From Cycas panzhihuaensis (taxonomy: Eukaryota; Plantae; Cycadophyta): a DNA stretch of 64,000 nt. The notes below the pieces were generated by a model. It searched no databases, was not told the origin of the DNA, and saw nothing but the letters and a program-made list of their open reading frames with translations. How positions within the stretch are numbered: position 1 is the stretch's first letter; each line of letters starts with the position of its first letter. Location of the stretch: assembly GCA_023213395.1 (NCBI GenBank), contig CM041465.1, positions 119,481,741 through 119,545,740 of the forward strand. The letters are read 5' to 3'. A program made the position numbers and the translations under genes. Positions 13,401-52,200 of the stretch are shown here, piece by piece.

Positions 13401-13793
13401 CATCTTCAACTTTTTGACTTTATAATCACTTATAAAAAGGAAAAAGATAATATTATAGTAGGCACTCTTTCTTGCTTACCATTCCTTGTATCTAATGAGA
13501 CCACTCATTATCTTGAGGATCCTACCCTTCACACCATCTCTACCTCATAACTAATATGGATACAAGAATTGGCCTTAGATAACCAATTCCAACTAGACTT
13601 TTCATAATGGACTAATAAGGTTCATACATAAAAGGATTGGTCCATCTATAACACTCTCTTATTACACCAAAACCACATCTTTCTACATCCTAAATCAACT
13701 TATATTTCTAAGATTTTATTGAAATATTACTCTTCTGCATTAGGTGGTTATTTAAGATTCAATAAGACATATCACAAGACCCATTCAGACTTC
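10500..13793 (+). pseudogene. Chromovirus gag-pol pseudogene, 5' part (gag, PR, RT, RH, start of INT zinc finger)
   Basis: Many stops and frameshifts. Motifs IDGGVSVNF, MSFGLCNAPTT, FDDILIYS, YLGHIISS, IAFESRKL, GGYLRFNKTY..DF. Start is approximate. Confidence 0.8.
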
Positions 13794-16380
13794 TGAAACG
13801 CTCGCTACGGGGCGGTGTCCCTACGTCTAGCAAAAGGATATAAGAATACGCTATGCTAACTAAGTTAGGCAGCGAGGACCTCACCTCACAAGGCGTCCGT
13901 GTGCCGGAGTGCAGATTCAGGACTGCAAGGTGCCTAGTTGCTTTCAGGTAGCCGTGTAAAGCAAGGCCTTCCTACCTTTCAGATGGCCAGGAAGGAGAGA
14001 GAATGCCTTGCGCGTTGCGTCTTCTCAAGGCAATGAAAAGGCAACGAATGAAAGGGAAACTAACTAATGTGTAGGTGAATGCAGGAAAGGGCGCAATGAG
14101 GGCAGCTCAAATACGATGCGAGCAAGCTATCTACGCTATGCTACTCTAGATAAAGCAAGAAATGATGTAAAGAAAATGAATGCACTTTCCCTTTTTCCTT
14201 TATATTCCTTTATAATTTCCTGACTACTCAGGCAAATGCATGAAAGGTAGTAATGTAAAAGGGGATACATGGGAAACAAGGGGAATACCTGGATCCAGCG
14301 CCTAAATGGAGTGCAACTTGTCTCTCTGAGTCCCGCTCCTTTCTTCTCTGTTTGTCGTGCATGCGTTGCTGATCGGCGGTAGTTGCCAGAAGCAATAGAA
14401 GAGGGGTTTACTTACCTCCCCATAAACATGCAAAAGCAAATAAAACAGAAAGAAACAAAAAGCTTGAAACCAAAGAAAGAAATGCACTACTTAGGGAACT
14501 AACCTACAACGGGCTCATCCCACGTATCACTCCACCAATGCACGGTCCTGCAAATGGGTGAGAAGAACACCTTCCTCTCCGAAGAGAGGCCACGAGATAT
14601 ACCAAAATATATATATATATACTGAAATCAAATGGAACTAAGATCTATGCTAAGCATCGAAATATAACTGAATGAAATAACAACATACAAGAAATGCTGT
14701 CACCACCATACACCACGAAGACACTCGAAAGGGAAAGGAGTATAGCCTCGGGATGGCTAACTTACCCATGGGAGACCTCCATGGAACTCAGGAAGGAAAA
14801 CCAGTTAGCAATAAGGTAGTGAAGCAACAAACCGTAACAAGGAAAAGAATAACAGAAAAAAAACTGGGGCTTACGTAGGGCCCAACACCAACAGGTGAGA
14901 CTTCTGGCAATGACATAGTGACGGGTTACTTATGCTAGTCTGAGCACCCTAACTAAGTTCCCTAAATTCCCTTAACCCGTTCCCTAAGAAAGCGCTGATG
15001 GCAAAGGGAAAGAGGACAAGGGACATAACCCTTTGGGAGAAGGACAGCAATGGGGGGTGGAACCCCGCCTACCTCCCTCAAATCCTCGTATGTTACTCCT
15101 TTGCACCAGCTAACTAAGGAAGGGGTGAAAGAGATAGTTTAAGGAAAATAGAGAGGCTTCAAGGAAACAATGGGAGGGTATTACTAATCCAGTGTAACAC
15201 TATGAGGAAAAGCTAGCTAATTAAGATCCCATTCATTAACAAACAAAAGAAATATGAATAAAATGGATTGCAAGTAGAAAATAAGAAGTACCTCATAGGA
15301 AGAAGATCAATCATGAACTTTGCTGCTAGGAGACAGCAGTAATGACCAACATATGAGGACTGATCATGAGTGGTTCTTACAAGAGTGAGAATGAAGAAAA
15401 CTCCTTACAAGCTTGGAGCCTTAGAAGTTGGCTCTTTGGGAAGCTTTTGGGTGAAAATGCCACTTAGATCCTTGAGCACCTGTAAAGAAAGATGGGGCTT
15501 GCTATGGAGAGCTGTAGGGGGTAGCAATGGCCCTGCAAGTCCAGCTGATAGCAATCATTTTCTCCTTTGTCTAGTTGCTGTGTATGTAGATTATCTTTTT
15601 CTGTTTGTTTTCTTGTTGAAAAAATTAGAAATTCTTCCAAGAGATTTAAAAAATGGACAAAAGATCCAAAAAATGGGGAGCAAAATCCCCTTTATCCCCT
15701 TGTTCACAGCAAGTAAACATTGGGGATGTCAGGGTGACTCGAATCAATCAACGCCATGCGGCAGTTCCACAAAAAAATAGAAACTGTCGCGTGGTTCTCT
15801 TTTTTTCTAATTTCAAACAAATATATCATGACAAACTCTACCAGATCGCGAAGAAATGCCGTCATCGCTAAGTTTATAGTGGTATCCGACTGGAAATAAA
15901 AAAGAGAAAAAATAAGCAGAAACATCAGGTTTTGGGGTAAAAACCAAGGTTAAACATAAGTTAGAGCAGCTGGGGGAATGTCCAGGTAATGGGCAGGTAC
16001 CCAAAATAATGCAAAGAGTCCTAACTAAGGATTAAATCAGGCTTAAGAAGGACTGCAACATAAGCAACATGTTGTAACAGGAGTAAACAGAGCTGACGAA
16101 AACATCCCGGGAGACCGTAGAGACAACGTGGGTGGCTGTGCGACATACATGGTGTAGAATTCGCTGAGGAATGCCCCCGCTGTGAGTCGTCATAGGCTGA
16201 TGGTATGCCGTAAGCATATGCATTATGAGCAAGTAGAAAAGCAATGTGTGCAGGCAGGCATATGTCAAGCAACCTACTCTAAATAACCTCAATCAAGCAT
16301 GGGCAAGAAAAGGTAAGAAAATATACCTGAACAAACCTGCGTCGATGCGTCTCGAGTCCATTCCCAGTAGCTGGGAAACA
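13794..16380 (-). repeat. 3' LTR (2587 bp)
   Basis: Direct repeat of 27809-30367 with TG/CA termini. PPT abuts at 16381. Confidence 0.95.
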
Positions 16381-16390
16381 CTACCCCCTT
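16381..16390 (-). promoter_or_regulatory. Polypurine tract
   Basis: Minus strand AAGGGGGTAG immediately before LTR start TGTTTCCC. Confidence 0.85.
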
Positions 16391-16462
16391 GGCAGCAGAG
16401 CCTCACTGCTCAGAAGCATAACATGATGGTGAATGCTGACAATCAAAGATATGAGTAACACA

Positions 16463-16769: not shown

Positions 16770-17181
16770 GAAGAGGGAGGCGATGCTCAAGGATGAGGTG
16801 GACGAGGCTGTTGGCCTCAGCATTGAGGTGCCTAGGGATATGATGAATATCCACTGACGAGAAACAAGCTAGAAGAGACCTGGCAGCAGACATGAGGGTT
16901 CTCAGGTGGGGGCATCGCACTTGGTAAACCTAGGTGAGATGGGACACCACAACTTGAGAATCACAAAGCAACACAATGGATCTGAGATGGAAACATAGAG
17001 CATCGGTAAGGGCTTCAATAACGGCTATGTACTCAACTTCATTATTAGTTGCCTCATGAAGAAAGACCTCAGAATATAAGAAATCATGTCCAGAGGGGCT
17101 GCAAAGAATCCACGCAGTGGCAGAAGGTCCGAGGTTGCTGCGACTTCCACCATTGGCGAAAACGAGAAGGGAAATGCCTGA
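16770..17181 (-). pseudogene. Stand-alone archaeal/bacterial-type ribonuclease HI (aRH) domain
   Basis: One frame: SGISLLVFANGGSRSNLGPSATAWILCSPSG..LHEATNNEVEYIAVIEALTDA..SIVLLCDSQVVVSHLT*VYQVRCPHLRTLMSAARSLLACFSSVDIHHIPRHLNAEANSLV. This matches the RNase HI motifs DGxSRxNPGP, TNNxAEY, DSxLVV and IPRxxNxxADxLA. The first and last catalytic Asp are Asn (GCCGA>GCCAA), and there is one TAG. Confidence 0.9.
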
Positions 17182-17700
17182 ATACTAAGCTCTGGTAGCA
17201 AACTAATAGTAGTGAAAGTAAAAGAAAGACTCGAATGGCAAGGAAAAAAGTGGCCGAGAAGGGTAGGAGGACCTAACAATGAGGTTATCCGAGAACGAGA
17301 GCAAGCAATTCAGCCATTGGCTGAGAGTGGGCAGAGAAAAGATGCCCTGGAGTGCCAAAGGTTACTTTGGGAAGCAAAACATGCCCCCAGACGGGGGAGC
17401 ACTCCCTTTGGAGACCCCAGGGGTGAAAAAGGGCTGCGGAAATGAGGCCAGGGTGGCAAAATAAGCCAAACGAGTATAAACTCAGGCACACACAGGAGTA
17501 GCGCACAAAACGATATAGAAGGGCCCTGGCAAAAGTACGATAATGAGGCGCCACAAATACCCTTACAAGGGAGGGCAAAAAGGGCATCACTAGAGCACAA
17601 TAGGCAATAGGGCCAGAAGGCAAAGGCTATCAGGGCAACGAGACGATCCCAACGATCGTCATGAGCCGTAACGGAAGAAGTGCCCGTCGGGGCCCCCGCC

Positions 17701-17707
17701 TATATAA
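17701..17707 (+). promoter_or_regulatory. TATA box of the antisense PMD gene
   Basis: CCGCC-TATATAA-GG after a GC-rich block, about 28 nt before a TTCATTTT initiator-like site and 71 nt before the ATG at 17772. Confidence 0.65.
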
Positions 17708-17771
17708 GGAAAACGAATGAAAATTGGATTCATTTTCACCGGCTCTCGTATGAAACCAGAGCCTTTTCCTT

Positions 17772-20253
17772 ATGATGCAGAGTGCTACCCAACTTCGGAG
17801 GCATGCAGGAGATGATCCAACCATTGGATCCGAGCGCAGTGAGAGTCATTATGACCAGAGAGATGAGATGGCGATGGTCAGGCCAGATTCAGTGAGTGGA
17901 TCTCACGAAACCTTCCCCATTTCGAAGTTCAAAGTTTATTGCTTTTTAGTTAATTTTAATACATTTTTATGCCCCTTATAGGCAATTGGATGCCTCTCGG
18001 AGTCCAAATTGGACCCAGAAAGAGATGGGGATCTAGGCATTAGAGAGCCCTAGTCCCAGTGGGCCCCACAGGGGTCCACCACAAAAATTTTGGGGATTTT
18101 CTGGGCTGAAACCCTCTTTTTTAGGGGGTTGCCATTCATACCGCAGCCAAGATTGTGGCACCGCGATCTTGGCCGCATGATCGCTATAGGAAAGCGATCA
18201 CCGCGGGACCCACTCCAAATTTAGCGGTATCGCTAAATTTGGAGCCAGACACGTAAAAATAAAAAAAAACTAGAAAATGGGCCACCCTAAAATTAGAAAG
18301 AGAGCTAGGAGCCTAGATGACTGCTAGGAGGCTGACCTTGACTGACTTTTGATGATTGCAGGCAGTTATCGCGGTGGATAACCGCGAGAACGTCGGCATG
18401 CCGATACTGAGTTACTTGGAGATGGCATCCCAAGAGGACAAGGCGACTCTTAAGAGGTGTGGCCTATACAAGGCCCTCAAGACCCCCTAGTTCACGTCAG
18501 ACCAGAGGCTTCTAGTTGACATCGTGTCACACTGGGACAAGAGGAGGCATATATTTCACTTGCCTCAGATAGGTGACGTCACTATCACCCCAAGAGATAT
18601 CAGGCAGATTTTGGGGGTACTAGCGACAGGGAGGCCAGTGAGGCTGGGAGCGCTGCCTAGCACCGAGGTAGCACATAGGGAGGTAGCCCAGTTTTTCACA
18701 GGGACCGACAGGTGGGAGCAGAGGGGAGCTGCCCTCCAGACTATGCTCATGTCCAAGATTCCTCGGGTGAGGAAGTTGATATTAGTATGCATTCTGTTCT
18801 AGATTTCCTGGAAATAGAACTACAGGGAGATCCCCGGAGGTTGGGTGGATGTAGTGCGCTGGTGTGAGGCTGGCGAGAGGATGGATTGGGCTACTCTAGT
18901 TGCGGCGAACCTTGTCGCCTAGCTAGACACCATCCAGAGATCCGACAGAGGAGGGTTCTCTTATAGCACACTATTGCAGTGCTGGTTTTTTGACCATTTT
19001 GCGGTAGTGGCACCAACAGGGGGGCCATTCCCCATAGCAGAGTGGGCCCCGATGGCCCACAGATGGCAAACGTGGCTCCGAGGGACAGAGGATCAGGCGC
19101 ATGTCCATCGGTCAGTCGATGCGACATCATTCAACCTCCTCACTCTGACAGATTATATAGCAGAGCCCTATAGAGCAGAGAGGTAGGGGAGTAATAATGG
19201 AGTGGGCAGAGCAAGATCACCCATCGACGACGATGATGACAATGATAGCGATGGTGATAGCGGTGACGACGGTGATGATGGAGGGGATGGGGCTGGCCCA
19301 TCGCGACCTGTAGGAGAGGCAGGTCTATCACAGTCAGTAGGAGGAGCAGCAGGACTATCCGGGACTGCCGGAGGAGGGGCACGCCCATCAGGAGCTGCCG
19401 AGGTGAGCAGGGTACCAGAGACCGGGGGTCGCAGATTACGGATCGTGAGGAGATCCGGAGAGGCAAGGGTCGAGCCAGTCCCTGTTAGGGGCGAGGTAGA
19501 GGCAGAGGATGTACCTGAGGACGAGGTACCTACAGCTGGCGGAGGGCCAGGAGACGAGGATGTCACCCAAGCAGAGGAGCCGGCGGCCGTGGCAGGTGAG
19601 ACCTAACCGTTTCCTTAGTCGTTTGACATCTAGATAGATGCTTGATTTCCTTTTATTATGGTATGCAGTGAGGATATACACTGACACACGACATGTTACA
19701 TTGACAGGTGTAGCAGAGGTCCAGAGACTAGTGGAGGCCATGGTGAGGGAGATGTTCCCTCAGGTCTACGCAGAGGGGTAATCGCCCATCCAGGCAGAGG
19801 ATGTGCCTAGGTCGGTAAGAGCCCACATGCAGGCATTTGCCCCACTGGTGAGGGTGAGAGACATCTGGGTTGCAGAGACCCAGGAACACATGGCATTCCA
19901 AGGGCAGCCACAGCGAGAGCTCAACGTGGCCAAGGGCGAGTGGGATGAGTCCAGGCCTTAGAGGCTTAGAGTGGACTAGGAGGAGATGCGGGGAACAACA
20001 TCTGTATAGCAGTACTAGAGGAGCGCCTCAAGGCGACAGAGGAGAAGTTTCAGAGTATGGAGGAGGGACTCCAGGGAGAGAGGGATCACATCCAGGTTCA
20101 ATACGACCAGCTAGTGGCGCAGATGGTCTTGAGGTCGAGCAGGAGCCAGACCCACACACATACAATCTACGACCCGAGATGGCCTCGATGAGGGGAGCGA
20201 GGCAGGCCTGGGGAGCTCAAAGGGATGTGGTCCCCAGGAGAGGGATCACATAG
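17772..20253 (+). pseudogene. Three-exon Plant Mobile Domain (PMD / aminotransferase-like, MAIN-like) gene, antisense to gag-pol; exons 17772-17891, 18362-19595, 19669-~20253
   Basis: Exon 2 holds DQRLLVDIVSHWDKRRHIFHLPQIGDVTITPRDIRQILGVLATGRPV and LQCWFFDHF (PMD signature LxxLVERW..THTFHLP.GE.TITL.DV..ILGLP..G.PV; LQ.W..EHF). Intron 1 is GTGAGT...CTGAC...TTGCAG (phase 0) and intron 2 is GTGAGA...ATGCAG (73 bp, phase 1); both join in frame. Exon 2 stays in one frame with only in-frame stops. The 3' end is approximate because of frameshifts. Confidence 0.85.
18143..18244. repeat. Three adjacent CpG-rich inverted repeats in PMD intron 1
   Basis: 18143-18176 (16-bp arms, 13/16 matched), 18178-18200 (TGATCGCT/AGCGATCA, perfect), 18213-18244 (CTCCAAATTTAGCG/CGCTAAATTTGGAG, perfect 14 bp). 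Confidence 0.9.
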
Positions 20254-21000: not shown

Positions 21001-24000
21001 TCACGCGTAAAACTTCTTAAGGAATTTTTCATTGACTACTTTCTCAAATTCTAAGCCTTCTAAGGTGGCAATCCTGTATGCACCGTTATCGAGGCTTTCG
21101 AGAATGACGAAGGGGCCTACCCATTTGGGCCCGAATTTGGCCAAGCGATCATAAAGGTACTCCAATTTGAGGATGTGGTCCCCGGGGCACAAAGGATGAG
21201 CACAAAGATGTTTGTCGTGTGTCCTTTGCAAGTGGGCTTTTGAAGCAAGGTTCGCTTGATAAGCCGTTAAGCACCTCTTATCTAGGGCTTCGAGGTCTGG
21301 GAGGCGAGCCTGGCAAATAGACTCCTCGTTAATGAGACCTCAAAGGGAAACTCGAAGAGAGGGGATCTCCACTTCCAGTGGGAGTATCGCCTTGGTTCTG
21401 TAGACTAACGAGAATGGGGTCATTCCAGTAGCCGTGCGGATGGAAGTGCGATAAGCCCAGAGGGTGGAAGGGAGTTGGACATGCCAATCCCTTTGAGATT
21501 GGGCAACGGTTTTTCTTAAAATGCTGACGAGCATTTTGTTGAAGGATTCAACTTGCCCGTTTGCTTGGGGGTAATAAGGGGATGATGTCTTATGCGAGAT
21601 CTTGAATTTCTCACACAATTTGTCCATTTCCTTATTACAGAAGGAAGTTCCATTATCCGTGATTAGGATATCTAGAATCCCGAAACGACAGATAATATGC
21701 TGGTAGACGAAGGTGGCTATCATCTTACTAGGGGTAGTGGACAGGGGGATTGCCTCTACCCATTTAGTGAAGTATTCGGTAGCAGTTAAGATATATTTAT
21801 GTTGTGCGAAAGATGGCGGTGATATAGCCCCAATGAGGTCTAAGCCCCATTGAGAAAAGGGCCATGGAGACACGATAGGGTGCAACGCCTCGGAAGGTAC
21901 GTGAGAGACATTGGCATGCTCCTGGCATCACCGACATCTAAGGGCATAAGCGTGGACGTCCTTGAACAAGGACGACCAGTAATAACCCATGCAGAGGATC
22001 CTTTGGGCCATGGATTGGCCCCCAAAGTGGCCCCCATAAATGCCATGATGGCATTCGTGGAGTATTTGGTCCGCTTCGTCAGGAGTGACGCAACAAAGCA
22101 GGATCCCATCAAAAGATCTCTTGTACAACACTTCATCCACAAGGAAGTGTTGCCTAGTAGTGGCGTAGATATGCGACCTAACCTTGTTACTAGCTTCAGG
22201 GCGACATTCTTACTGAGTCAGATATCGCACAATATCACCATACCACTCGCTGTCGGTGAGTGGGTGGGGAGAAGCATCATGGACGGTCATGATAGACTCG
22301 TCCGGGAAAGAGTCGTCAACAGGAACGCCACTCGCATTAGGAATGGTAGCATCAGCTAACTTCTCTGCTACTATTATTCCCTTCTTTGACTTCCTGTTAA
22401 TGACTTGCAAGTCGAACTCTTGAAGCGGTGACTACCAACGACCGCCTCCCTACCCATCAAGTCCGAACGAGTAAGTAAGTAACGCAAGGGATCAGATTGA
22501 ATGATCACCTTAGTTGTATTACCGAGCAAGTAATGCCTAAACTTCTTGGTCGTATGGACCAAGGAGAGGCATTCCTTTTTGGCATGGGGATAGTTTAATT
22601 TAGTGGCAACGAGAGTGCGGCTGATGAAATAAATAGCCCTCTCAGTTCCTGAATCATCCTCCTGTGCAAGCATTGCGCCCAGGGATTCGTCGGTTGTCAA
22701 GGTGTATAGAATGAAGGGCCTATCAAAACGAGGAGGCGCCAGTGTAGGGGCGGAAACGAGAGCTTTCTTGAGTCCTACGAAGGCCTTTTGGGTCTTGTCT
22801 GACCAAACAAAAGGGGTTTCTTTCTTCAATAGGTTCGTAAAAGGCTTGGCGTTTATGGCAAAATTTGCCAACAAACACCTCAGAAAACCAAGTCTGCCTA
22901 GAAACAACTTAATTTGTCATTGGGTCCTAGGCAGCGGCATGTCAAGGATTGCCTTGACTTTTTCCAGATCGATTTGGATTCCTTGTTGGGACACGAGGAA
23001 ACCCAAGAGTTTGCCTAAAGTGATGGCAAACACGCATTTCAGCAGGTTCAGGCTAACGTGATACTTGCGGCATCTTGTGAAGATGGCATGCAAGTCAGAA
23101 GGATGATGGGCTCTGGTACGTAAAGGCCCATCATATCGTCCATGAAAACCTTTAACGTATTGTTGATGAGGTCGTGAAAGATAAAATATATGGCTCTTTG
23201 ATAAGTAGCCCCTGCATTCTTAAGACCAAAGGGCATTGCCTTGTAGGCAAAGGTACCCCATGACGTAGTGAAGGCCATCTTATGGCGGTCTTCAGGAGAA
23301 ATCTGAATTTGGTTATAGCTGGAGAAGCTATCCATTAAGGATATTACTTCGAATCCAGCCGTACGATTAATTATTTGATCAATGAAGGGAAGAGGAAAGT
23401 TGTCCTTAGGACAAGCATTGTTTATATCGCGAAAATCGACACAAATACAAATGGTCCCATTCTTCTTAGTAACAGGAACGATATTTGATACCCACTTAGG
23501 GTAATCGATGGAAGAAACGAGTCCTGCATCCAGAAGCTTCTCAACCTCCATCTTAATGGCAGCTGAAAGCTTCGGGTGAAGGGGACACTACTTCTGACAT
23601 ACTGGGCGAGCATCAAGAACAGTCATAAGGTTATGTGTGATGATGGAGGGGTCAATGCCCTTCATATCCGAGTAGTCCCATGCGAATACATCATGGAATT
23701 CCTGGAATAGGAGGGAGTATTCCCTCACTTCATCAAGAGTACATTCCGCTCCTACCTTGATGATCTTGTCCAGGGTAAAGACTATGTCCTGAGTTGCCCC
23801 CATGCACATAGCATTCCCCTCCTCGAAATGGAGGGAGGCAAGATTGACCAGAAGAGAGGAAACGGAAGAAGGGATCGGATCAGCTAATGTGGACCCAATC
23901 GCTAAGACCTTCTGGTGGCCAAGCTTATGGTGACCAGGAGGCAAACTGGGCATGGAACCTGTTAAGTGCTCCAACAAAGCCTCATTATCTTCGAAGTAGT

Positions 24001-27000
24001 CCACCCGATGGATGACCTGGCTTCGAATGGACGAGGCGCAGGATAGCGTGGGAGTGATAGGACCAGTATGGCCTGAAAGCTGCCTATCATCCCCAAGGGA
24101 CTCTAAAGGAGAGTCAAGGAGAGGTCCCTTGTAAAAAGTAAGAGGGAAACTCTCAACATCATCACCTATGGGAGGTGATGGGATGGAAGAGCTAGGAACA
24201 CGATGATCAACATGCGCAATGTCATGTGACATGTGAAAATGACCAGGCTCTATAACAAAAGGGATCCTAGGAGGATGCCCCATACTAGTGCGGAGAAACG
24301 AAACTGGGTGAGGATGATCCTCATCCTCGCTATGGGACTCGTCATCGTTAAACATGGTGAGGTAGCCATAGCTCCCAACACCAATGGGGGTGAAACACAT
24401 CAAACCAGGAGAAGAAGATATGGGATCTTCTTTATGGTAAGAGGAATCGGGGATTCCAATGGAGCAAGCCGAGACATGATCAGAAGGGTGTTTGTTTCCC
24501 TTCGTATGGCCATGGCTTGCCTGAGTAGAAGGCCTGACTTGTTTGGCGAGCGATCGCTCACGGGAGACAACTTTCATTTGCCTATTATGGACAAATTTAA
24601 GTTGCCCCCAACGGGTGGAACACACGGCTCCCATTTGGTCAAGCCATAGTTGACCCAGAAGCAAGTTGTAATCAACGTCAACATCGAGGACGACGATGTC
24701 AATAACGATAGTCTTGTCCTCAAGAGTAAGGGGTATTGAGATAGATCCCAAGGGAGTCTTCTCGCTACCGTCATAACCCTGATAATGCCATGGAACAGGT
24801 TCTAAGGTGGAAATGCTAAGTTCTTGCATAACGCGTAAGGGCATGGCATTGACGGAAGAACCGTTGTCTACGACGGTTCTTCGCAATGTGCAATCAGGAG
24901 TATCTATGGTAATGGTAAAAGGGAAGTTCCATTGGCGCTCCCTTCCACTAGACGCAGGAAGATCTCTGGGATTGAAAGAGATGATAGGTTCACAACTTTG
25001 GGTTGTGCCCAAGGCGTGAACGGACATGTCATTCGATCCTAGAGCTTCCAAGAGGAGTGTTCGCTGCTTGGGGCAACTTCTCAAGACATCCATGATGGAC
25101 ATCTCGGCAGCCACAGTGAGAAGCTCTTCGACTACGGAGAAGGGCTTACCCCTCCCTGTGGGTTGGGTAAGGGCTCTCCTAAAGTTGAATCTACCGGGGC
25201 AGACGGGAATGCTCTTGGGAAGCGCGAGAATATCTGGAGGAATGGCTTCCGGAGGAGGATCGAGTTGCAAGGTAGATGCGGAGGCGCCTGTTGCCTCGTT
25301 TGCGACTTGAGACTGGGTCAACGTATAAAGGGGAGTGGTCTCAAGCATTTAGATCACCTTCTTTCCTTTATTATGGGACCGCGAAGGTGATGGAGTATGG
25401 CGGCCAGGGGAGCACGAAGGGGAAGATGGCCTTTGCACACCCTTCCCTCTACCATATGAAGGGTGAGAATCGGGGGATCTATCCTGATTTTGATTGTTCC
25501 TTTACTGAACATCATGACCATGTTCCCCATGTTTGGGGAATGGGTCTCTATGAATGGGTTGATCGAGGTTAGGCCTCGATGCCTGCCTAGGGGACGAATC
25601 ACGTGGTGGGACGTCGTGTGGGTGCTGCACTCGACAATGCGAATCGTCATGGAAACACTCCCTGTGGATGGAACACCACCTTTTCTCAAGGGGAGGATCG
25701 ATCCTCCTTGCTTGAGAAGACTGGATGTTACCCCCTTTGGGGGGCACCGCACGAGAAGCCTATTGAACTGGTTTATGGGAGGTCGGTGATGAAGGAGGTT
25801 GGAGTTTAAGCTCCTTCATAGTGTGCTCAAATGAGCGAATAGTGGAGGTAAGAGGATCTAGGGTCCTCTCAGTCAGATGAGAGGTGGGCCTAGTGGGTTA
25901 CGAAGGTTTGGTTTCCTTCACTCGGGGAGGTGCCTCATGGTGTTGTGAGGGCTTAGGAGGTTTCTTGAGTCCATCTTGGATCTTAATGGCCTCCAACGCC
26001 AAGCACCTCGTAATCGCGGAGTCACATGTGGTTGGCCCCATCTTAAAGACTTCCACATGCACTTCGAGGTGAAGCGCGTTGACGAAGAGATCTCACTTCA
26101 ACTCTTCAGGCAACGTGGCCTTGGTAGAGTAAAGGAGATCATGAAAGTGTCACACAAAGTCACGATTCATTTCGTCGTGACCTTGTTTAAGCGACAGAAG
26201 TGCTTTCATTCCACTTTTGAATGGACGGGCTACATCAAAATAGTTGATGAACTTGTCCACCAATTGCTGGAACGAAGAAATTGAATGAGCAGGGAGATGG
26301 TAAAACCACTTGAGGGCGTCACCCTGCAAGGATCACAGAAATAACTTCATTAGAATATGGTCGTAAGCCCAATAATCAATGCACGCCATAGAGAAACTAC
26401 ATACGTGCTCGGTTGGGTTTTGCGACAAAGTTCCGTTGAATTTGGGAACTTCAGGAGGGTGAGGCGGCAGGTTCGTCCTTAGTGCCTCAACAGATAATGG
26501 CGTCGACCTATAGTCTATAAAAGGACATGTCCTTACATGGGCTAACAGATCGATGACCGGCAAAGGAACAGGAATGGATGGGGGTGGTAAGCCCATCCCT
26601 CCCCGGGGAAATGCCCCTTGTTGGAAGGGGGGTTGCAGGTAAATGCCTTGAAAGGGAGGTATGTTCCCTTGCAAAGACGCGGTAATAGGGGTTGCGCTAG
26701 ATGGTGGAAATGAAGGGTGAGGGACCGGGTTTTTCCCATACGGGCCACCCGTAGGTGGCGCAACTCCGTATGGGTGCAACGGGTCCACCCCATAAGCAGG
26801 AAGATGGTTTCCCCTACCCTGCCCCCAAGGTTGAGACGTGTAACCTGGGGGCACGTAAAGGGAAGGACCACCAGCAGGGTTTTAAATATATGTAGGAGTG
26901 GGTTCTACATAGTTAATGGTAGCAACTCTAGTAGGGCCTCGAGGCCTACTAGAGAACACATGCGCCACGTTCGAAGGTGGCACATTCATTTGACTCGGAA

Positions 27001-27634
27001 ATGACATTCTAACCCTGAGTTGGGGAAAGGACATGCCACGAACAGGTCTCGAAGAAGTAGGTAGCGCAACACTTGCCCTAGGAGCCAGTGTAGACATGGC
27101 ATAGGATGAGTGTGCACATGCAGGAGCATCATTCATTGTATAAGACGCAGGTATGGATGAAGAAGATGCTACATTGCGCAATATTTCTTCAAACCACCTA
27201 GGATGCGGTTGGCGGTGAGTTGTTCGGAAGTACTCACTGAGTGCTTCGACTACGTCGGCAGGAGGGGTATCCTCGTAGCCATACGAAGTCAACGGGATCT
27301 TGAATGTCGAGGATCCCTCAGGACGCTCCTCGTAAGGCTCACCAGTAGGGTGGTGAGTCTCGTGAGGAGATGACTCTTCTGCTGCATGAGCAGAAGGACG
27401 AAAGTCAGCAGGGTGAAACTGGTCATCTGGATAATAGATGGAATTATCGCCCCCCTAGGCAGATTCCGGAACAGATGAGGGGAACTCTTGAGTTCCCAAA
27501 GCAATGGTATGGTAAGCCCAATCGGACGGGTAACCTTCCATTGTCGAATTGGGGTTCGACGACGGAAGGGAACAAGGTGATTGGTCTTCTGACAACGGCG
27601 GCAGACCTCGCAAGCGACGTGAGAAACGTCGCAT
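21001..27634 (-). pseudogene. gag-pol: gag-pol polyprotein (gag, zinc knuckle, PR, RT, RH, INT), disrupted by several stops and frameshifts
   Basis: Starts MRRFSRRLRGLPP (ATG 27634). gag VPKFNGTLSQNPTEHVCSF, knuckle WCSIHRECFHDDSHC (~25680), PR VVDNGSSVNAMP (~24880), RT WVSNIVPVTKKNGTICICVDFRDIN..MPFGLKNAGATYQR..FMDDM, RH FILYT..LGAMLAQ..AIYFISR, INT CHHGIYGGHF..YYW..PWPFSQWGLDLIG..YPQANGQVES..WVGPF. Stop at 21001. Confidence 0.95.
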
Positions 27635-27789: not shown

Positions 27790-27807
27790 TCCCCAGTATG
27801 GTCGCCA
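27790..27807 (-). promoter_or_regulatory. Primer binding site, tRNA-Arg type
   Basis: Minus strand TGGCGACCATACTGGGGA one base after the LTR end. Resembles the Ogre/Tat Arg PBS TGGCGACTCCACTGGGGA. Confidence 0.8.
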
Positions 27808-27808
27808 G

Positions 27809-30367
27809 TGAAACGCTCGCTACGAGGCAATGTCCCTACATCTAACAAAAGGATATAAGAATACACTATGCTAACTAAGCTAGGCAATGAGGACCTCACC
27901 TCGCAGGCGCCTCGGCGCCAGCATAGATTCAGGATCGCAAGGTGCCCGTTGCTTCTGTGTAGGCAAAGCAAGGCCTTCCTACCTTTCGGATGGCCGAGAA
28001 GGAGAGGGAATGCCTTGCGCGTTGCGTCTTCTCAAGGCAATGAGAAGGCAACGAATGGAAGGGCAACTAACTAATGTGCAGGCGAATGCAGGAAAGGGAG
28101 CAATGAGGGCAGCTCGAATACGACGCGAGCAAGCTATCTATGCTACGCTATGCTAGATAAAGCAAGAAATGATATAAAGAAAATGAATGCACTTTCCCTT
28201 TTTCCTCTATATTCCTTTACAATTTCTTAACTACTCAGGCAAATGCATGAAAGGTAGCAATGTAAAAGGGGATACACAGGAAACAAGGGGAATACCTAGA
28301 TCCAACGCCTGAATAGAGTGCAACTCGTCTTTCTGAGTCCCGCTCCTTTCTTCTCCATTCATCGTGCATGCGTTACCGATCAACGATAGTTGCCGGAAGC
28401 GATAGAAGAGGGGTTTACTTACCTCCCCATAAATATGCAAAAGCAAATAAAACGGAAAGAAACGAAAAGCTTGAAACTAAAGAAAGAAATGCACTACGTA
28501 GGGAACTAACCTGCAACGCACTCGTCCCATGTATCACTCCACCAATGCGCGGTCCTACAAATGGGTGAGAAGAACACCTTCCTCTCGGAAGAGAGGCCAC
28601 GAGATATATCAAAAAATATATATATACTGAAATCAAATGGAACTAAGATCTATGCTAAGCATGGAAATATAACCAAATAAAATAGCAACATATAAGAAAT
28701 ACTCTCACCACCATACACCACGAAGACACTCGAAAGGGAAAGGAGTATAGCCTCGGGATGGCTAACTCACCCACGGGAGACCTCCATGGAACTCGGGAAG
28801 GAAAACTAGTTGGCAACAAGGTAGTGAAGCAACAAACCGTAACAAGGAAAATAATAACAGAAAAAAAACTGGGGCTTACGTAGGGCCCAATACCAACAGG
28901 TGAGACTTCTGGCAATGACATAGTGATGGGTTGCCTATGCTAGTCTGAGCACCCTAACTAAGTTCCCTAAATTCCCTTAACCCGTTCCCTAAGAAAGTGC
29001 TGATGGCAAAGGGAAAGAGGACAAGGGATGGAACCCTTGGAGAGAAGGACAGCAATGGGGGACGGAACCCCGCCTACCTCCCTCAAATCCTCGTATGTTA
29101 CTCCTTTCCACCGGCTAATTAAGGAAGGGGTGAAAGAGATAGTTTAAGGAAAATAGAGAGGCTTTAAGGAAACAACAGGAGGGTATTACTAATCTAGTGT
29201 AACACTATGAGGAAAAGCTAGCTAACTAGGATCCCATTCATTAACAAACAAAAGAAATAGGAATAAAATGGATTTCAAGTAGAAAACAAGAAGTACCTCA
29301 TACGAAGAAGATCAATCATGAACTTTGCTGCTAGGAGACAGTAGCAATGATCAATGTATGAGGACTGATCATGAGTGGTTCTTGCAAGAGTGAGAATGAA
29401 GAAAACTCCTTGCAAGCTTAGAGCCTTGGAAGTTGGCTCTTTGGGAAGCTTTTGGGTGAAAATGCCACTTAAATCCTTGAGCACATGCAAAGAAAGATGG
29501 GGCTTGCTGTGGGCAGCTGTAGGGGGCAGCAATGGCCTTGCAAGTTTAGCTGATAGCAATCCTTTTCTCCTTTGTCCAGTTGTTGTGTATATAGATTGTC
29601 TTTTTTTGTGTGTTTTCTTGTTGAAAAAATTAGAAATTCTTCTAAGAGATTTGAAAAATGGCCAAAAGATCCAAAAAATAGGGAGCAAAATCCTCTTTAT
29701 CCCCCTGTTCACAGCAAGTGAACGTTGGGGATGTCAGGGTGACTCGAATCAATCAATGCCATGCAGCAGTTCTGCAAAAAAGCAGAAACTATCACGTGGT
29801 TCTCTTTTTTTTAAATTTCAAACAGTCATACCACTAAGAATTTACTGCATCAAAGAAATGTCATGCATCGCTAAGTTTACAGTAGTATCCGACTGGAAAT
29901 TAAAAGAGAAAAAATAAGTAGAAACATTAGGTTTTGGGGTAAAAACCAAGGCTAAACATAAGTTAGAGCAGCTGGGGGAATGCCCAGGTACCCAAAATAA
30001 TGCAAAGAGTCCTAACTAAGGATTAAATCAAGCTTAGGAAGGACTGCAACATAAGCAACATGTTGTAATGGGAGCAAACAGGTCTGACGAAAACATCCCG
30101 GGAGACCGTGGAGATAACGTGGGTGGCTGTGCGCCATACGGGGTGTAGCATTCACTGAGGAATGCCCCCGCTGTGAGTCGTCATAGGTTGATGGTGTGCC
30201 GTAAGCACATGCATTATGAGCAAGTAGAAAAGTAATGGCAGTGTGCATATGTCAAGCAACATACTCTAAATAACCTCAATCAAGCATGGGCAAGAAAAGG
30301 TAAGAAAATATACCTGAACAAACCTGCATCGATGTGTCTCGAGTCCATTCCCAGTAGCCGGGAAACA
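27809..30367 (-). repeat. 5' LTR (2559 bp)
   Basis: Direct repeat of 13794-16380 with the PBS adjacent. Candidate TATA (CTATATAC on the minus strand) near 29590. Confidence 0.95.
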
Positions 30368-30372
30368 ACTTC

Positions 30373-41222: not shown

Positions 41223-41980
41223 AAATGGTGTAGGGGTGGGCATTTCTCTTTATATCTTAGATAATTAGGTATACCTTTCTCCTCTAGACTTCCTTTTGAT
41301 TTTATCAATAATATTGTAAAATATGAAGCTTTGATCATAGGTCTACAAAAAGACTTATTGATGAAAATCAAAATCTTACAAGTGTCAGAAGATGTAAAGC
41401 TTATGAATAATTAGGTTAAGGAATCTTATTTTGCTAGGAATATTAGGTTAAAAATTTATATACATTGAATACATGCCCTTATAGAACAATTAAAAGCTTT
41501 TAATCTATAACATATACCTAGGGACCATAATTAACTTATGAATTCCTTAACTATTGTAACCTTGCTCTTTAAGGAGAAGCAACCTATGATATATGATTGA
41601 CAAATGGTAGAGACTGGCATTGCTTTTTATGCCCCCAGATAACAAGGTATACCATACTCCTTTAGACTTTCTTTTGATTGTACCAATCATATAGCAAAAT
41701 ATGAAGCCTTGATCCTAGATCTACAAAAAAATTTATTGATGAAAATCAAATTCCTATAACTAATAGGAGATTTAAATATTGTGATTAATTATGTTAAGGA
41801 ATATTGCTTTGTTAAGAATATTAGGTTAAAAAGCTATATACATTGAGTACAAGACCTTATAGAACAATTCAAATCTTTTAATATACAACATATACTTAGG
41901 GACCTGAAATAGCTTATAAATTCCTTAACTATTATAGCCTTGCTCTTTAAGGGGAAGAAACCTATGGCATATGCTTAATA
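41223..41980 (+). repeat. Old tandem duplication (~380 bp unit) of the aRH domain
   Basis: 41223-41602 and 41603-41980 both read ..RL.FD..N.I.KYEALI..LQK.LLMKIK.L...N.VKE..NIRLK.YIH..LIEQ..FN..HI.RD..NSLT. Confidence 0.9.
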
Positions 41981-43929
41981 AGTATTAAAGACCTTAACTA
42001 AAGCTTCCATTCCTAATAATATAGATCATTAGTAAAATTTTAGACGCTTTTTATATGAGACTAAATAATTTTAGGGTATAGTCATGGGAGAAAATATATC
42101 CAATATAGTAAAGAATATCTTGAGGGATTCTCACCATGAAGGGATAAGTAATGGTATATCTAACAAGATTCCAAAAGGCTTAGTTCTCCTTAAAAACATA
42201 TTTGACCATTTCAATTTGCAATAAAGGGGGACTATGTAGCAAAAAGCTTTTCTAGAATAGTATAAAGGGATATATGATGCAACATTGGCATATATGAGTA
42301 GCCCAAGATCATTTATGTTGACGAATACTACATTGAAAAGGAAAGATAAGCTAGCTTACAACTTTGTAAAGAATATTAGGATATTTTTACATGGGTCTAT
42401 AAAGATTTGAAAGTCTTTAAACTTGAAATTATGCAACATTCTATACCCCTCTAGAATAAATCCAAGCCTATGAAGTTAAAATAGAGGTATGCTAATCCAA
42501 AATTAAAAGATTTAATGTGGGATAAAAATTTTGAAAATACAAAAACTAGATATCATTTATGCTATTAAATACTCTACCTAGGTAGCTAATATGATTTCAT
42601 AAGAAAGAAGAATTATGGTATTAGGCTTTATGTCAATTTTCATAATTTAAACAAAGAATCTTTAAATAGAAAACTACTAGCTCCCTAGAATGGAGTAGAA
42701 TCTCTGAATGGTTTTGAGGATCTAGGATGATGCCTTTAACTTAATGACTTTTCAAGATACAGTTAAATTAAGACAATAAAAAAAGACCAACAAAAATTTA
42801 TCTTTAATACTATCCAAGGAACCTTGATATATAAAAGTATGCTATTTAGATTAATAAATATAAAGGTTACATTTTAGAGAACTATGGATGAAGCATTCAA
42901 AGATTTAATTAAGATCATTATAATCATCTACATAGATGATATGCATTCACAAAATGTAAGATAGATATTTAGAACATCTTAGAAAGGTTTTCCAAAGATG
43001 TGGAGAATTTAGAATCTCTTTCAATCTAAAGAAATAATTTTTGGAGTGATAACTATTAAACTATTAGGTCATATTATGATTGAGGAGGAAATATATATTG
43101 ACCTTAATAGAGTCAAAGATATTTAGGAATGTTCCCCCATGAAATAAAAAGACCCTTTAACATCTTCAATTAGGTTAATTTCTTATAAATATTTATTTAT
43201 GATTTTGCTAAGATGACCCTTCCATTGGGCAAGTTACTCAAGAAGAATGCAAATTTCATCTGGAATGAAGAGGACAAAGAGGATTTAATTTAATCAAGAA
43301 TTGAATTGCTAAAGCTCCTCTATTGATTATCCCATATTATATCAATGATTTATTATCCACTCTTATGCTTCACAAGAAGTGTATGCTATAATGCTTACTA
43401 AAAAATGTGAAATGGGATAAGAAAAGCCTACCGTATTCTTAAATAAAACACTAAAAAACTATCAATTGAGATACACCTAAGTAGAGAAACAAGCTTATGC
43501 TTTGGTTGAATCCATAAAGGATTTTAAGCCATATATCACACATAATCACACTGAGGCATATGCATCCTTTACCTTACTAAAAACTATGCTCAACCAAATT
43601 GAACTAGCTAAAAGAAAATGGGCTAAATGGTTAGCCTAAACTCAAGGGCTTGATGTGGATCTTAAGGTAGCCAAGTTGGTTTACATGTAAGTCTTATGTA
43701 AATTCTTAGATAAAAAGATTAAAGATGATAATCATTAATCTAAAAAAAGTGAAGAAACTCATGATAACATAGATTATATAGAAACAAATCTTGATGATTG
43801 TTAGATTTTGATGTTTTTTTGCAAAACATAACTTTTTACCTCAAGAATGGTTTTATGCTTAGTGGGTCTTGAAAAATGTGAGAAAAGTAATTTGAAGCTT
43901 AGATCTAACCCTCATATTCTTCTATAAGT

Positions 43930-43988
43930 TAGTTTGTATAAGAGGGGATATGATGGAGGTAGTTTGTATAAGAGGGGATATGATGGAG
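43930..43988 (+). repeat. Perfect 30-bp-period tandem duplication
   Basis: TAGTTTGTATAAGAGGGGATATGATGGAG at 43930 and 43960. Confidence 0.95.
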
Positions 43989-46900
43989 CCCTATAAAAAT
44001 GTTTAGGGTCTCACAAGACTTAGAGATGCTTAAAAAATTTCATGCTAGTCTATGTAGTGGTCATTTCATAGTCGAGGCTATTGCCTATAAGATTATTAAA
44101 GTGAGATATTTCTAGCCCATTATGTTTAAGGTACCTTTCAAATAGTAAAAGCATGTCTTTCATGCCAAAGGTTTCTAGGTAAATAGAACCTTTCTACCAT
44201 ATTAATTTAGCCTGTCTATGTAAAACAACCTTGTCGACATCAATTTATTATGACGAGGACTAGATTTTATTAGTCTAATCAACATAAATTCTAGTTGTAG
44301 GCATCTATTTTTCCGCACTTGAATTGATTAATTTACCAAATGGTTAGAAGTAATTACAACTAAAAGAGTTATCTTGACAGTATTAATTGAATCTTTAGAG
44401 CATATAATCAGATAGAGGTTTAGGCTAAACTTATATCAAATAATTATCTTATGCTTATATCAGTTGAAATTTTGATTTTTATGACAAATATCAAATTCAA
44501 CTTACATCATCCTCTAATTATTACCCTCAAGGAAATAGGTTAGTTGAGTCAACTAATAAGAACTTATTGAGGATTTTAAAAAGGATCATAAAGCAGAATA
44601 GAAAAGACTAACATAATAAGCTTTATCAAGTACATGCTAATTCAATTACTAACAAAGAAACATTAGGATAATCTCCATATTTGTTAGTTTATGATAAAGA
44701 AGTTATTCTAACTTCTCACTTGATTCTTTTGACATTACAATTTAGCTAAAATAGATGATGAAGGATAACTAGCCATAGAAAAGAGAGTACAAGACCTATT
44801 GGTACTATAAGAGGAAAGATAAAACCCTAGATATAAACTTTATTAATATCAAGAAAAAGTTAAATAATATTTTATTTAGGTAGTAGCTCTTAAGAAAAGT
44901 TTTAGGCTTGGTGACCAAGTCTTATAATGGGACAAAGCTCATGAAAAGCCAGAAGCCTATAGAAAGTTTGATTCATTATGGTTGGACCTATTTGAAATCA
45001 TGATATAAATTAGATATAATAACTTCTAGCTAAAAATTAGCAAAGGATGAATCTTACATGTTCTAATTAATAGGAAATATCTTAAGCCTTTTGTTTTTTT
45101 GCTTTGGAAGAATAAGTGCTTCTTTATTATAAAATTTTTTATAAGCTTTATATGGTTAGGTAGAGTTTTATAAGGAATGCTAGTTAATTTTTTAAACATA
45201 TGTAAGGATCACAAAAAATAAGGGGGCTAATATTACCATCTCATATTATGCTCTTATCTTGTTAATCCAACCAACATATAAAGAGGATACATAGTTGTGT
45301 TTAACAACTTTACAATTTCATTTAAATGATTTATAAGGTCTTTGATTGAAGTTTTATCTTATTTGATATTGTAGGCAAGGTTAGATTCTTTTCCCCATAA
45401 ATTAAATAATTGATCTTTATAGGGCCCCCCACAAAGTTATCAAATAGAAATCATAGGATTCATAATTAAAGTTCATTAGTAGTGTGAAGTGGCTAACTTC
45501 TTCTCAGTCATGTATTTTATAAATGTAATAGTAGAATAATTGATTAGGGAACATGTGTCAAAAGGTATTTTAAACAAGTGGGTCTAAAATATAAAAGCTA
45601 CAAGTTATCAAATACATTCATTAATTAGAAGGTGGTTGCATACATGTCAAATTAATTCTATTAACCAATTGTATGCTTATCATTAGTGAAAAGCCAAAGG
45701 CAAATGATACATGAAACATTAGCTAAGATGAAGAGAAGTTGGAAAAATATAGTTTCATATTATAATTTTATGCATGATGTTGTCATAATAATTTGCCACT
45801 TAACTAGCTTCTTATGATATGATCAATTATTTATGAGAATAATTTTTGTAAATATTTCATTTCTTTTATTTCATTTATAATGGTATCTCACTTGAAATAT
45901 ATAAAAGGGAAGAGACTATAAAAGAACAGACTTTTAGATCCTTTAATAAATTTTGAGGAATAGAACTAAGTTTTTAAGACATGTTATCTTAGTGGTGAAT
46001 GAGAAACTTTGATGTGTTGTATGATTGTGTGAGAGAGTATATGTTGTGAATGCGTAATGTTTGAATGCATTCTAAATTCTCATTTGTTAAGATCTTCTTG
46101 TAAGGATAAACCCCATTGAGAATTTAGTGTAGAGATAGTATGTGTATGGGTATTTAAAGTATGTTCTACATGCTTTAAATATGAAGACCATATACATGAT
46201 TAGCCATTTTAGTCTATAAAAATTATAGTCTAGGTTGCCCACATTTTGCTATCTAACTATAAATAAATAGTGGTAGGTCTTGTAGTTAGTCTCTTTTTGG
46301 TAATTGATTTCCCTACATTACAACTATATTGGAATGAATAACAATTGATAGTTTGTTTAGCTTCTTTTTGACGAGTAATTTTATACTTGCTTATTGACTA
46401 TAATCTCATGAGCTTGGCCCTTTTTCTAACTTAATATGGTTATCATAAACAAGGCTTAATCTTTGAAGTGTCCCTTTGTTAAATAAGAGTTTGGGATGTT
46501 CTCTTGCACTATCCATTCCCATAATGTCTTTCACCTATGTCCCTATAATTCATCATCTTACTATATTTTTCCTCTTAGGAGTACCTTTATATATGCTTAT
46601 AACTATATGTATATACATAGTTCCATGTATCATATATTGGAGTACTCCCATTTATTGTTAGTGCATACTTACCTACTCAAATGTTTTATAGACCAATGAA
46701 TATGGATATTTTAGAATGTGTATCTTTTTCAAGACAACAAATCCTATTATATATAACACACCCACACCCTTTATAAAGAATTATCAGTCCAATAGTACAT
46801 AAAGAAATTTAAGAAACTATAAAGTAAAACATAGTTATAAACTAATTAGGTATGAGATTTCTATATTAAAGATTAAGACCTAAGTTGAAGGCATAACTTT

Positions 46901-49256: not shown

Positions 49257-52200
49257 CTAGCTACTTTGGACCATTTCCTTCTCCACCAGAACCATAAGAT
49301 CCTCAGGAAAGTCAAGCCTCCACATGATGTCTTCCTTTTGATTCACCCCCTGGTTTGCCAAAAAATCAGCAACTTTGTTTCCTTCTCTTAGTGTGTGCCT
49401 TATACAGACTTCTTCTAGGCCCTTAATACTCTCCTTCACATCATTAATCATGGACTGGAATCTCTAGTCCGGGAGGGCTATGCCTTTTAGCGAATTAATG
49501 ACCACCTCTGAGTCTCCCTCAATTACCAGTTGCTGAATGCCTCCTTTGAGGGCTAAATTAAGAGCCTTGAGCATAGCATACAATTTCGCAAAGTGGTTTG
49601 TTTGGTGCTCATAATAGTCCGTGAAGGCCCAAATGGGGGTACCCTTGTTATCTCTCAAGAATGCCCCTCCCAGCCTTCTCCGGGTTCCCTTTTATAGCAC
49701 TGTTAAAGTTGATTTTTAGCCAGGGCTCCACTGGTGGCAACCAACTGCTACATCTGACCTTTACAACCTCATATGCTGGCTCTATGCCCCACTTAAGCAG
49801 AATCCTATTCTCAGTCAGGGTAGTATGCTTCTCCTTAATGTTTCTAACATTCTCCCTGATGTCCATACAGATTTTATTAAAGGTGGCATGCTAGTCCATC
49901 TGTTTGCCCTGGAAGATTCTTCTATTTCTTTCCTTCCATATATTCCACGATAGTATCGGTAGTGCACTCTTCTAAATATAACTTAAGACTTTACTTTTGA
50001 ATGGGCTTTGCCAAGCAAGCCATAGATTGACAACCTTTTCTGAAAAGGTCCAGCACACCTCTAGTTTATCCAATAGCAGCCCCCATACCTCCCTTGAGAA
50101 TGAACACCCAAGGAAAATATGATCCATGGATTCCTCTTCTTTGTAGCATAGTATACACCTGTTGGGCAGGTGGAACCCTCTCTTTTTGAGATTATCTACA
50201 AAAAGAGTTTTATTCCTCAAACAGATCCACCAAAACACTACTATCTTGGGGATAAGTGGGAGCTTCCAAACACCTTCTAATGTTGGATCCCTTTAGTCAC
50301 CTCTCACTAGGCATAAGTAGTGGTACCCCTGTTTGGTAGTATATTCCCCAGACAGGCTCAAGGGCCACACAACCGAATCCAGGGAAGGCGTCCTAGGGAT
50401 ATAACTCTTTCCCAAAATCCTCTTAATTTTGTAAAGACCCTCCTACAGAGGTTGCTCCTCCTGGAATTCCTCAAAGTTTCTCCAACTTCCGTTTCTTCCA
50501 ATCCCGATCCAGTAATCATTTATAAGTAATCCATATTGCCTAACACAGGGGCCCTGGATAGGAACTAAATCAAGGTATTTCTTTAAGGCCTTATCATAGC
50601 ACCACGCATCCTCCCAGAACCTAATGGAGCTACCATCTCCCAATCTCCATTTCAGGCCTTCTCTAATAACTTTCTAGGCTTTAAGGATACTCCTCCAGAT
50701 GGTTGAGCTAACCGGTGAGGCAATGTTTTTGATGAGAGAGTCACCTTGAAGATATTTTCATGTTAGAATCTTCTCCCATAGTCTCTCTCCCCCTTTGATT
50801 AATCGCCAAGCCCATCTTGGCCCTAAGAGCAACATTAAAAGATGGAATCCTTCTGAGATTGAGACCTCCAGCCCATTTTGGAGTACAAACTTTATTCCAG
50901 CTCACCAGGTGTATCCTGGCTTTGTTCTCTGCCTCAGACTAGAAAAACCTCTTTTGGATGGTTTCAATAATATCCGAGATTCCAGGCGGCATTCTAAAAA
51001 TGGACATCTAGAAGATTGAGATGATCTGAAGTGTAGAAGCCACTAGTTGGAGCTTTCCCAATAGACTTAAAAAGGCACCTTTCCAGCCAGCCAACTTCCT
51101 TTGGATTCTATCGATGAGGGGGTTCCACATTTCCTTAGTTATCTTACCTACAAAGAGAGGCAATCTGAGGTAAGTTATGGGGAGCTTCTTAATACCCATC
51201 CCTAAAATCTTGTTGATCCTACCTTGAGTACACCCTGGGGTATTTATGAAGTAGACATTACTCTTGTTCAAACTTATCTTCTGGTTCATAGCCCTCTCAA
51301 AATATCCCAAGATCTCCTTGAATTTAGATGCCTCTCTAATGGTAGCCTTCCCTAAGAAGATATTATCATCCACGAATTGGTGGTGGACCACATTATCCAT
51401 CCCTAATGTCAGTTTTATGCCTTTGATAATCCCTTGCCTTCTAGCTGTCTCCAAGGCTCTTCCCAACATTTCAGCCATAATTATATAGAGAAAGAGAGAG
51501 AGAGGATCACCTTGTCTCAATCCCCTAGAACCTGGGAAAAATCTAGAAGAGGAGCCATTGATAATTGTGATTTACCTATGCAAAGCTTGATCCAAGTCCT
51601 CCATAGTTCCCCAAAACCAAATGCCTCTAGACAATCTAGAACGCACTCCCAGGAGACCCTATCGAAGGCCTTTGTGAGGTCAATCTTAATGAGCATCGTA
51701 AGCTCCTTCCTTTCCTTAACCAAATCAATTATTTCATGAACTACTATGAAGCCATCATAGATCTATCTGCCCTGAAGGAAATCATCCTGATTTTGGGAGA
51801 TAATATTTGGCATGATTTTCTTTAGTCTATTGGCCAGGACCTTAGTTATAATCTTATATTTAACATTGCAGAGACTAATGGGATAGAACTCTTCCATTCT
51901 CTTCACCCCTTCTTTCTTAGGGATAAGAACAAGGAATGTGGTCTGCCATTCCTATAAAATCTTGTTATTTACATAGAATTCTTGCAGAGCTCCCATATGG
52001 TCATCCTTGATAATGTCCCAAAGCTCCTAAAAAAACCCCTAGGGAAATCCATCGGGGCCCAGAGCTTTGTCTCTCTTCATGCCAAAGAGAGCTAGCCTAA
52101 CTTCTTCCTGAGTAAAAGGGGCTGCCAACTGAGCATTTTAGGATTCATTCACCAAACTGGGGATGTTTCTTAGGAAGTCCTTCCTTCTATCCTTATCACC

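What the first reader, a model, noticed from the sequence alone, without database searches (positions are those of the whole stretch)
16770..17280. RNase HI domain detached ~3.8 kb from pol, lacking an ATG but preceded by acceptor-like sites
Seen: the RH-INT linker is short (~22400-22200) and the PR-RT linker has no aRH motifs, so this is the element's only aRH and it cannot be translated as part of the polyprotein. No in-frame ATG lies directly upstream. Instead the minus strand has a pyrimidine tract (TCTTTCTTTTACTTTCACTACTATTAG) and several AGs at ~17230-17180. Both Asp>Asn changes are GCCGA>GCCAA, the CpG deamination pattern, so the ancestor probably had an intact DEDD site. Inference: expression needs splicing, either from pol/LTR RNA or from a short upstream exon (a GTAAGG donor-like site lies near 17568 on the minus strand).
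Basis: partly seen in the sequence, partly recalled or inferred. Interest (0 to 1): 0.75.

Follow-up and report, generated by a model that had tools for sequence, protein, structure and literature searches.

The report
Retrotransposon RNase H as separate gene
This is a decayed copy of a known gymnosperm-type retrotransposon that carries its extra RNase H as a separate gene; sister copies have a normal start codon, and a splice-acceptor-like signal just before that codon in three families suggests the enzyme is likely made from a spliced RNA, as retroviral env is.

Summary
The domain is a real archaeal-type RNase HI (Pfam RVT_3, E 6.6e-19), 3.8 kb behind pol in a 16.6 kb Tat retrotransposon of the known post-integrase type (TatIII, structure #3). 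The splice idea survives in altered form. In two other post-integrase families, a T-rich spacer ending in CAG sits directly before the RNase H ATG, 93-120 nt after pol; the window family has CAG two bases before it. The enzyme is therefore likely translated from its own ATG on a spliced RNA, env-style, and would act in trans on an RT whose own RNase H is degenerate. No RNA was available, so splicing and the donor are untested. The order pol, antisense PMD gene, RNase H differs from those two families. The 2023 Tat paper leaves expression of this ORF open; I found no paper or earlier scan note on splicing here.

The parts
27809..30367 (-). 5' LTR (TG...CA), 2,559 nt; holds the two best donor-like sites of the sense strand (28510, 28422)
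   Evidence: LTR pair 90.6% identical, K2P 0.085; the 28422 site is kept in the 3' LTR
30368..30372 (.). 5-bp target-site duplication, matching 13789-13793
   Evidence: GAAGT on the minus strand on both sides
27790..27807 (-). primer-binding site; tRNA type not tested
   Evidence: TGG-starting site 1 nt after the LTR
25349..27541 (-). gag, decayed
   Evidence: Retrotrans_gag E 9.9e-08
21001..25348 (-). pol: protease, RT, native RNase H, integrase; broken by stops and frameshifts
   Evidence: RVT_1, RT_RNaseH, rve and Integrase_H2C2 above cut-off; Asp_protease_2 weak, E 0.038
22345..22740 (-). native RNase H, degenerate: first catalytic Asp absent
   Evidence: translation; also absent in near-intact L002
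17851..20250 (+). antisense PMD gene, predicted to be spliced; ends approximate
   Evidence: PF10536 at 18461-18676 and 18851-19177, E about 1e-6, below cut-off; acceptor TTGCAG at 18359-18361 has a counterpart in L001
17701..17706 (.). palindromic TATATA box; candidate promoter of the PMD gene, possibly bidirectional
   Evidence: reads as TATA on both strands; similar box before PMD in L001
17205..17229 (-). T-rich pyrimidine tract
   Evidence: nearby AGs rank 2 and 7 of 245 YAG sites by upstream T content
   Evidence: 97.9-100% of laid depth differs at 17204
17178..17186 (-). two candidate acceptors (AG 17186-17185 and 17179-17178) just before the start codon
   Evidence: not among the 40 of 65 difference rows shown; each ranks 27 of 245
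17173..17175 (-). start-codon position: ATG in sister copies, lost in this copy
   Evidence: 98.0-99.9% of laid depth, 54-72 contigs per run; Met in the same column of P0024 and P0042
16770..17175 (-). stand-alone archaeal-type RNase HI ORF. Catalytic positions 17154 (Asn here), 17034 (Glu), 16962 (Asp), 16812 (Asn here); internal stop 16932-16930; true end not fixed
16381..16393 (-). polypurine tract
13794..16380 (-). 3' LTR

Best explanation
The region is the stand-alone, ATG-started extra RNase H gene of a post-integrase Tat (TatIII) retrotransposon, decayed in this copy, and it is likely expressed from a spliced RNA that would join a donor in the 5' LTR leader to an acceptor just before the ATG. 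Shown: the domain, its separation from pol, the ATG and Asp residues in sister copies, the degenerate native RNase H, and CAG before the ATG in three families. Inferred: that the CAG is a working acceptor (about 0.7), that the donor lies in the 5' leader (about 0.5), and that the roughly 140-residue enzyme is co-packaged and removes the RNA template in trans for RT.
For: ATG in 98.0-99.9% and Asp in 86-97% of laid depth; the internal stop is a sense codon in 56-62%. Met-started stand-alone relatives: Ginkgo Gb_11691, 142 aa, 49% identical; 114 of 120 listed hits start exactly 12 residues before the first Asp. A search among longer proteins gave 1 hit of 418 candidates, and that hit lacks integrase. 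In L001/L002 and L003/L004, a 46-50% T spacer ends in CAG directly before the ATG. That site ranks 1 of 123 YAG sites in L003 and 11 of 180 in L002, while CAG precedes only 4 of 95 and 3 of 131 ATGs there. Those spacers (93 and about 120 nt) leave little room for a promoter. In-frame stops separate pol from the ORF in L002. No donor inside pol is shared by the three families. Precedent in the sister clade: Athila env mRNA is described as spliced from the full-length RNA (PMC7197481, passages).
Against: No RNA evidence at all. The acceptor rests on three families; L001/L002 and L003/L004 are near-duplicates, so they count as two loci. In the window family the ATG-proximal AGs rank only 27 of 245, and the loose-end line of run X1 shows a different context before the ATG. 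Of two N-extended relatives, P0280 has Gln before the Met (fits CAG) and P0199 has His (does not). The donor and transcription start are unlocated. A local TATA box offers another route for this family. Laid depth is summed contig depth, not copy number, and comes from one study. Gene callers may write Met for GTG or TTG starts.
Confidence: 0.5

Rival explanations
1. Local bidirectional promoter: the TATATA box at 17701-17706 drives the PMD gene rightwards and a short RNase H mRNA leftwards, with a 5' UTR intron ending just before the ATG.
For: Head-to-head layout; palindromic TATA; laid depth peaks at 17672-17750; similar box and splice-like sites downstream of it in L001; about 500 nt of T-rich leader.
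Against: Cannot apply to L002 or L003, where the ORF follows pol within 93-120 nt. The local donor is at chance level.
Confidence: 0.25
2. No splicing: the ORF is read by reinitiation or from an unspliced short transcript, and the CAG is incidental.
For: An ATG is present, so splicing is not required; T-rich spacers are common in non-coding DNA; one X1 context lacks the CAG.
Against: CAG directly before the ATG in two families 48% identical in protein, against a 2-4% background. Reinitiation across 3.8 kb and an antisense gene is implausible here.
Confidence: 0.12
3. Splicing from inside pol fuses RT and the native RNase H in frame to the extra RNase H, giving a retrovirus-like protein (closest to the first reader's idea).
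For: The L002 and L003 acceptors and the 17186 site are all in phase 0; a donor-like site lies at 22182, near the RH-INT boundary.
Against: No donor in pol is shared by the three families; the ATG is kept at a fixed position; the 17179 acceptor is in another phase.
Confidence: 0.08
4. The ORF is a non-functional passenger.
For: This copy is dead; only 57 of 120 listed relatives keep all four acidic residues.
Against: Each position is kept in 97-107 of 120, and most losses are Asp>Asn or Glu>Lys, the pattern of methyl-C decay; the native RNase H is degenerate.
Confidence: 0.03

Closest known systems
TatIII / Tat structure #3 'post-integrase', clusters H (Pinaceae) and I (Ginkgo, Cycas): PMC4408406, PMC6317226, PMC10508981, PMC13468544
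   Same: Domain order GAG.PR.RT.RH.INT.aRH, degenerate native RNase H, antisense PMD ORF, 5-bp TSD, size within 12.7-17.3 kb. The nearest named protein is Ginkgo Gb_11691, which points to cluster I.
   Different: The RNase H lies behind the antisense PMD gene, 3.8 kb from pol, not directly after integrase as in L001-L004 and the 2015 text. None of the text I saw mentions an acceptor or a route of expression; figures were not visible.
Athila and retroviral env subgenomic mRNA (PMC7197481, passages)
   Same: A third sense ORF between pol and the 3' LTR, with an acceptor-like site before it.
   Different: The product is a replication enzyme, not an envelope protein; splicing is not shown here.
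Archaeal-type RNase HI (PDB 4e19, 3u3g, 3hst)
   Same: Single domain of about 140 aa, DEDD plus the late Arg, Met a few residues before the first Asp.
   Different: Encoded by a retrotransposon; activity untested.

Membership tests
TatIII / structure #3 | Ty3/Gypsy order PR-RT-RH-INT between LTRs | tested here: met
TatIII / structure #3 | extra RNase H downstream of integrase and none inside pol | tested here: met
TatIII / structure #3 | archaeal-type extra RNase H with DEDD | tested here: met
   nearest solved structures are archaeal-type; Asp kept in 86-97% of laid depth; two are Asn in this copy
TatIII / structure #3 | degenerate native RNase H | tested here: met
   first Asp absent
TatIII / structure #3 | antisense PMD ORF in the 3' part | tested here: met
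   PF10536, E about 1e-6, below Pfam cut-off; 22% identity to the L001 PMD, E 1.5e-08
TatIII / structure #3 | 5-bp TSD and size 12.7-17.3 kb (REXdb table) | tested here: met
   GAAGT duplication; 16,574 nt
TatIII / structure #3 | tRNA-Arg primer-binding site (64% of REXdb TatIII) | not tested
   no tRNA reference; the paper search gave nothing useful
TatIII / structure #3 | RT phylogeny within cluster H or I | not testable with these tools
   reference sets unreadable; proxies: RT 57% to L002, RNase H nearest to Ginkgo
Lineage III as described in 2015 | RNase H at the Pol C-terminus, before the PMD ORF | tested here: not met
   3.8 kb away and behind PMD here; in L002 it is in pol's frame but behind in-frame stops
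env-like spliced subgenomic mRNA (works like) | acceptor just upstream of the third ORF | tested here: met
   by sequence only
env-like spliced subgenomic mRNA (works like) | donor in the 5' leader | tested here: inconclusive
   strong candidates at 28422 and 28510; transcription start unknown
env-like spliced subgenomic mRNA (works like) | spliced transcript observed | not testable with these tools
   no RNA run was available to lay

The most novel reading that the evidence does not exclude
Gymnosperm post-integrase Tat elements have put RNase H in the env slot: a third gene read from a spliced subgenomic RNA supplies RNase H in trans to a reverse transcriptase whose own RNase H is dead. The acceptor-ATG-RNase H cassette travels as a unit, which let it move behind the PMD gene in this lineage.
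Probability: 0.5. Interest if true: 0.62.

Novelty: new variant of a known kind. Interest (0 to 1): 0.42.

Why it matters
PMC10508981 says the separate-ORF position raises the question of how the domain can function, and PMC13468544 calls its status (part of pol or separate ORF) controversial. The sequences seen here favour a separate ORF and name one exact splice junction to look for. If confirmed, this would be an LTR retroelement that makes RNase H as a free subunit under its own expression control, an alternative to the fused RT-tether-RNase H of retroviruses.

Tried and rejected
No host genome was held. Run search: no RNA holder listed; this is no evidence on expression. The first protein search with the decayed copy gave only 2 hits at 33-36% identity. 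Viral-contig scans: none related; 75 loci at 27-42% identity that were not examined further. The single-sequence fold of Gb_11691 was useless, pLDDT 39.9. No homology between the leader and the LTR beyond 11-12-nt matches. No donor in pol is shared by all three families. No PMD was detected in the gap of the older relic. DNA joints in laid contigs were single, shallow and not intron-like. Wright and Voytas 2002 was not held. Earlier scan notes: two on separate integrase genes, not relevant; none by sequence or by splice words. Rejected: 'ATG-less gene', the AG at 17204 as acceptor, and GTAAGG as a significant donor.

Full report
Setting. The finding lies in a 16,574-nt LTR retrotransposon on the minus strand. 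Its LTRs (27809-30367 and 13794-16380) are 90.6% identical (K2P 0.085), with a 5-bp target duplication. In sense order it has gag, then protease, RT, native RNase H and integrase ending at 21001, then a PMD gene on the opposite strand, then the RNase H in question, a polypurine tract and the 3' LTR. No host genome was held.

The observation in this copy. The domain matches RVT_3 (E 6.6e-19) and RNase_H, and its closest solved relatives are archaeal-type RNase HI enzymes. A profile of 8 related proteins, including this one, finds no other copy inside the element. The gap from the pol stop is 3,826 nt. This copy has no in-frame ATG before the first catalytic position; it has the tract, five AGs and GTAAGG at 17566, two Asn at Asp positions and one internal stop. 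The native RNase H lacks its first Asp, as does that of the near-intact relative L002.

Sister copies. Four contig runs of one study, under four organism codes, hold the family. Only 40 of 237 and 40 of 65 difference rows were shown, and depth is not copy number. The AGs at 17186 and 17179 are not among the rows shown. A loose-end line of run X2 (21 contigs) carries CAG two bases before the ATG, whereas one of X1 (20 contigs, agreement 0.78) carries a different upstream context. Two related database proteins have Met in the same column.

Relatives. The nearest named protein is Ginkgo Gb_11691, 142 aa, Met-started, DEDD intact, 49% identical. This points to the Ginkgo/cycad cluster; the host was not determined. 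Of the 120 hits listed (of 1,296), 114 start 12 residues before the first Asp and 57 keep all four acidic residues. A search among longer proteins gave 1 hit of 418 candidates, without integrase; the tool calls such a blank weak evidence.

The acceptor. A metagenome scan gave four loci of two families (each pair is nearly identical). Both have pol, a short T-rich spacer, the RNase H ORF, then an antisense PMD-like ORF (Pfam detects PMD in L001 but not in L003). In both, CAG stands directly before the ATG. By upstream T content the site ranks 1 of 123 YAG sites in L003 and 11 of 180 in L002, and CAG precedes only 3 of 131 and 4 of 95 ATGs in those loci. The L003 site closely resembles the PMD acceptor-like site that has counterparts in the window and L001. 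In L002 the ORF is in pol's frame but behind in-frame stops, which may explain the 2015 reading as a Pol C-terminus. Of two N-extended relatives, one has Gln before the Met and one has His. The scoring is crude, uses recalled consensus motifs, and rests on three families.

Mechanism. The ORF has its own start, so splicing would only remove what lies upstream. With 93-120 nt between pol and the ATG in two families there is little room for a promoter, and no donor inside pol is shared by the three families. The simplest route common to all three is an env-like RNA spliced from the 5' leader. The two best donor-like sites of the sense strand (8 of 9 letters) lie in the LTR at 28510 and 28422, and the second is kept in both LTRs. 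For the window's family a local route also exists: a palindromic TATATA at 17701-17706 between the head-to-head PMD and RNase H genes, with a similar box in L001. The enzyme would be co-packaged and act in trans; that step is inference from the degenerate native domain.

Literature. PMC10508981 (whole main text; supplement parts 1 and 3 and search passages) defines structure #3 in Pinaceae, Cycas and Ginkgo and says it is unclear how the domain works from a separate ORF. PMC4408406 (section 6 and passages) places it at the Pol C-terminus, with an antisense PMD ORF. PMC6317226 (passages and one table row) defines TatIII. PMC13468544 (passages) calls the ORF status controversial and has no occurrence of 'splic'. 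PMC7197481 (passages) states that Athila env mRNA is spliced. PMC1142308 and PMC9289625 (passages) added nothing direct. Eight searches, judged from listings, showed no paper on splicing of this ORF or on the pol-PMD-RNase H order. Figures, the authors' online data and two REXdb files were not visible and may show that order.

Verdict. The detached RNase H is a known architecture and the missing ATG is decay. What remains is an acceptor-like site before the ATG in three families, and a gene order unlike the other two families. Together they give a concrete, untested answer to a stated open question. Interest 0.42.

Noticed in passing
window 33212-31302, 8863-8474, 6235-5660, about 3640-3270 (minus): A much older, fragmented relative, split by later insertions including the element studied, also has an RNase H relic about 2 kb behind integrase (60% nt identity to 16835-17050); no PMD was detectable in the gap.
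   Followed up: partly
window 41304-41555 and 41679-41930 (plus): Tandem pair of decayed RNase H-like segments upstream of RT and integrase relics at 42305-44746; possibly a Tat element with RNase H before RT.
   Followed up: no
window about 49350-53100 (minus): L1-type element with endonuclease, RT and a downstream RNase H-like segment.
   Followed up: no
window 25351-25346 (minus): gag ends in a stop followed at once by an in-frame ATG that opens pol; L002 has one continuous frame there, so this may be decay.
   Followed up: no
L001 4044-4380: Behind the shared TATATA box the sense strand has T-rich, splice-like sites but no recognised gene, hinting at a divergent transcript in that family too.
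   Followed up: partly
window 17240-17290: Laid depth peaks about tenfold over a short patch that shares a 12-mer with the 5' LTR; not significant, E 0.58.
   Followed up: partly
P0048 cluster: A cluster of 530 members; 36 of the 40 read carry a source name, mostly 'ribonuclease HI', but the loci fetched with it show retrotransposon ORFs, likely from plant DNA in metagenomes.
   Followed up: partly
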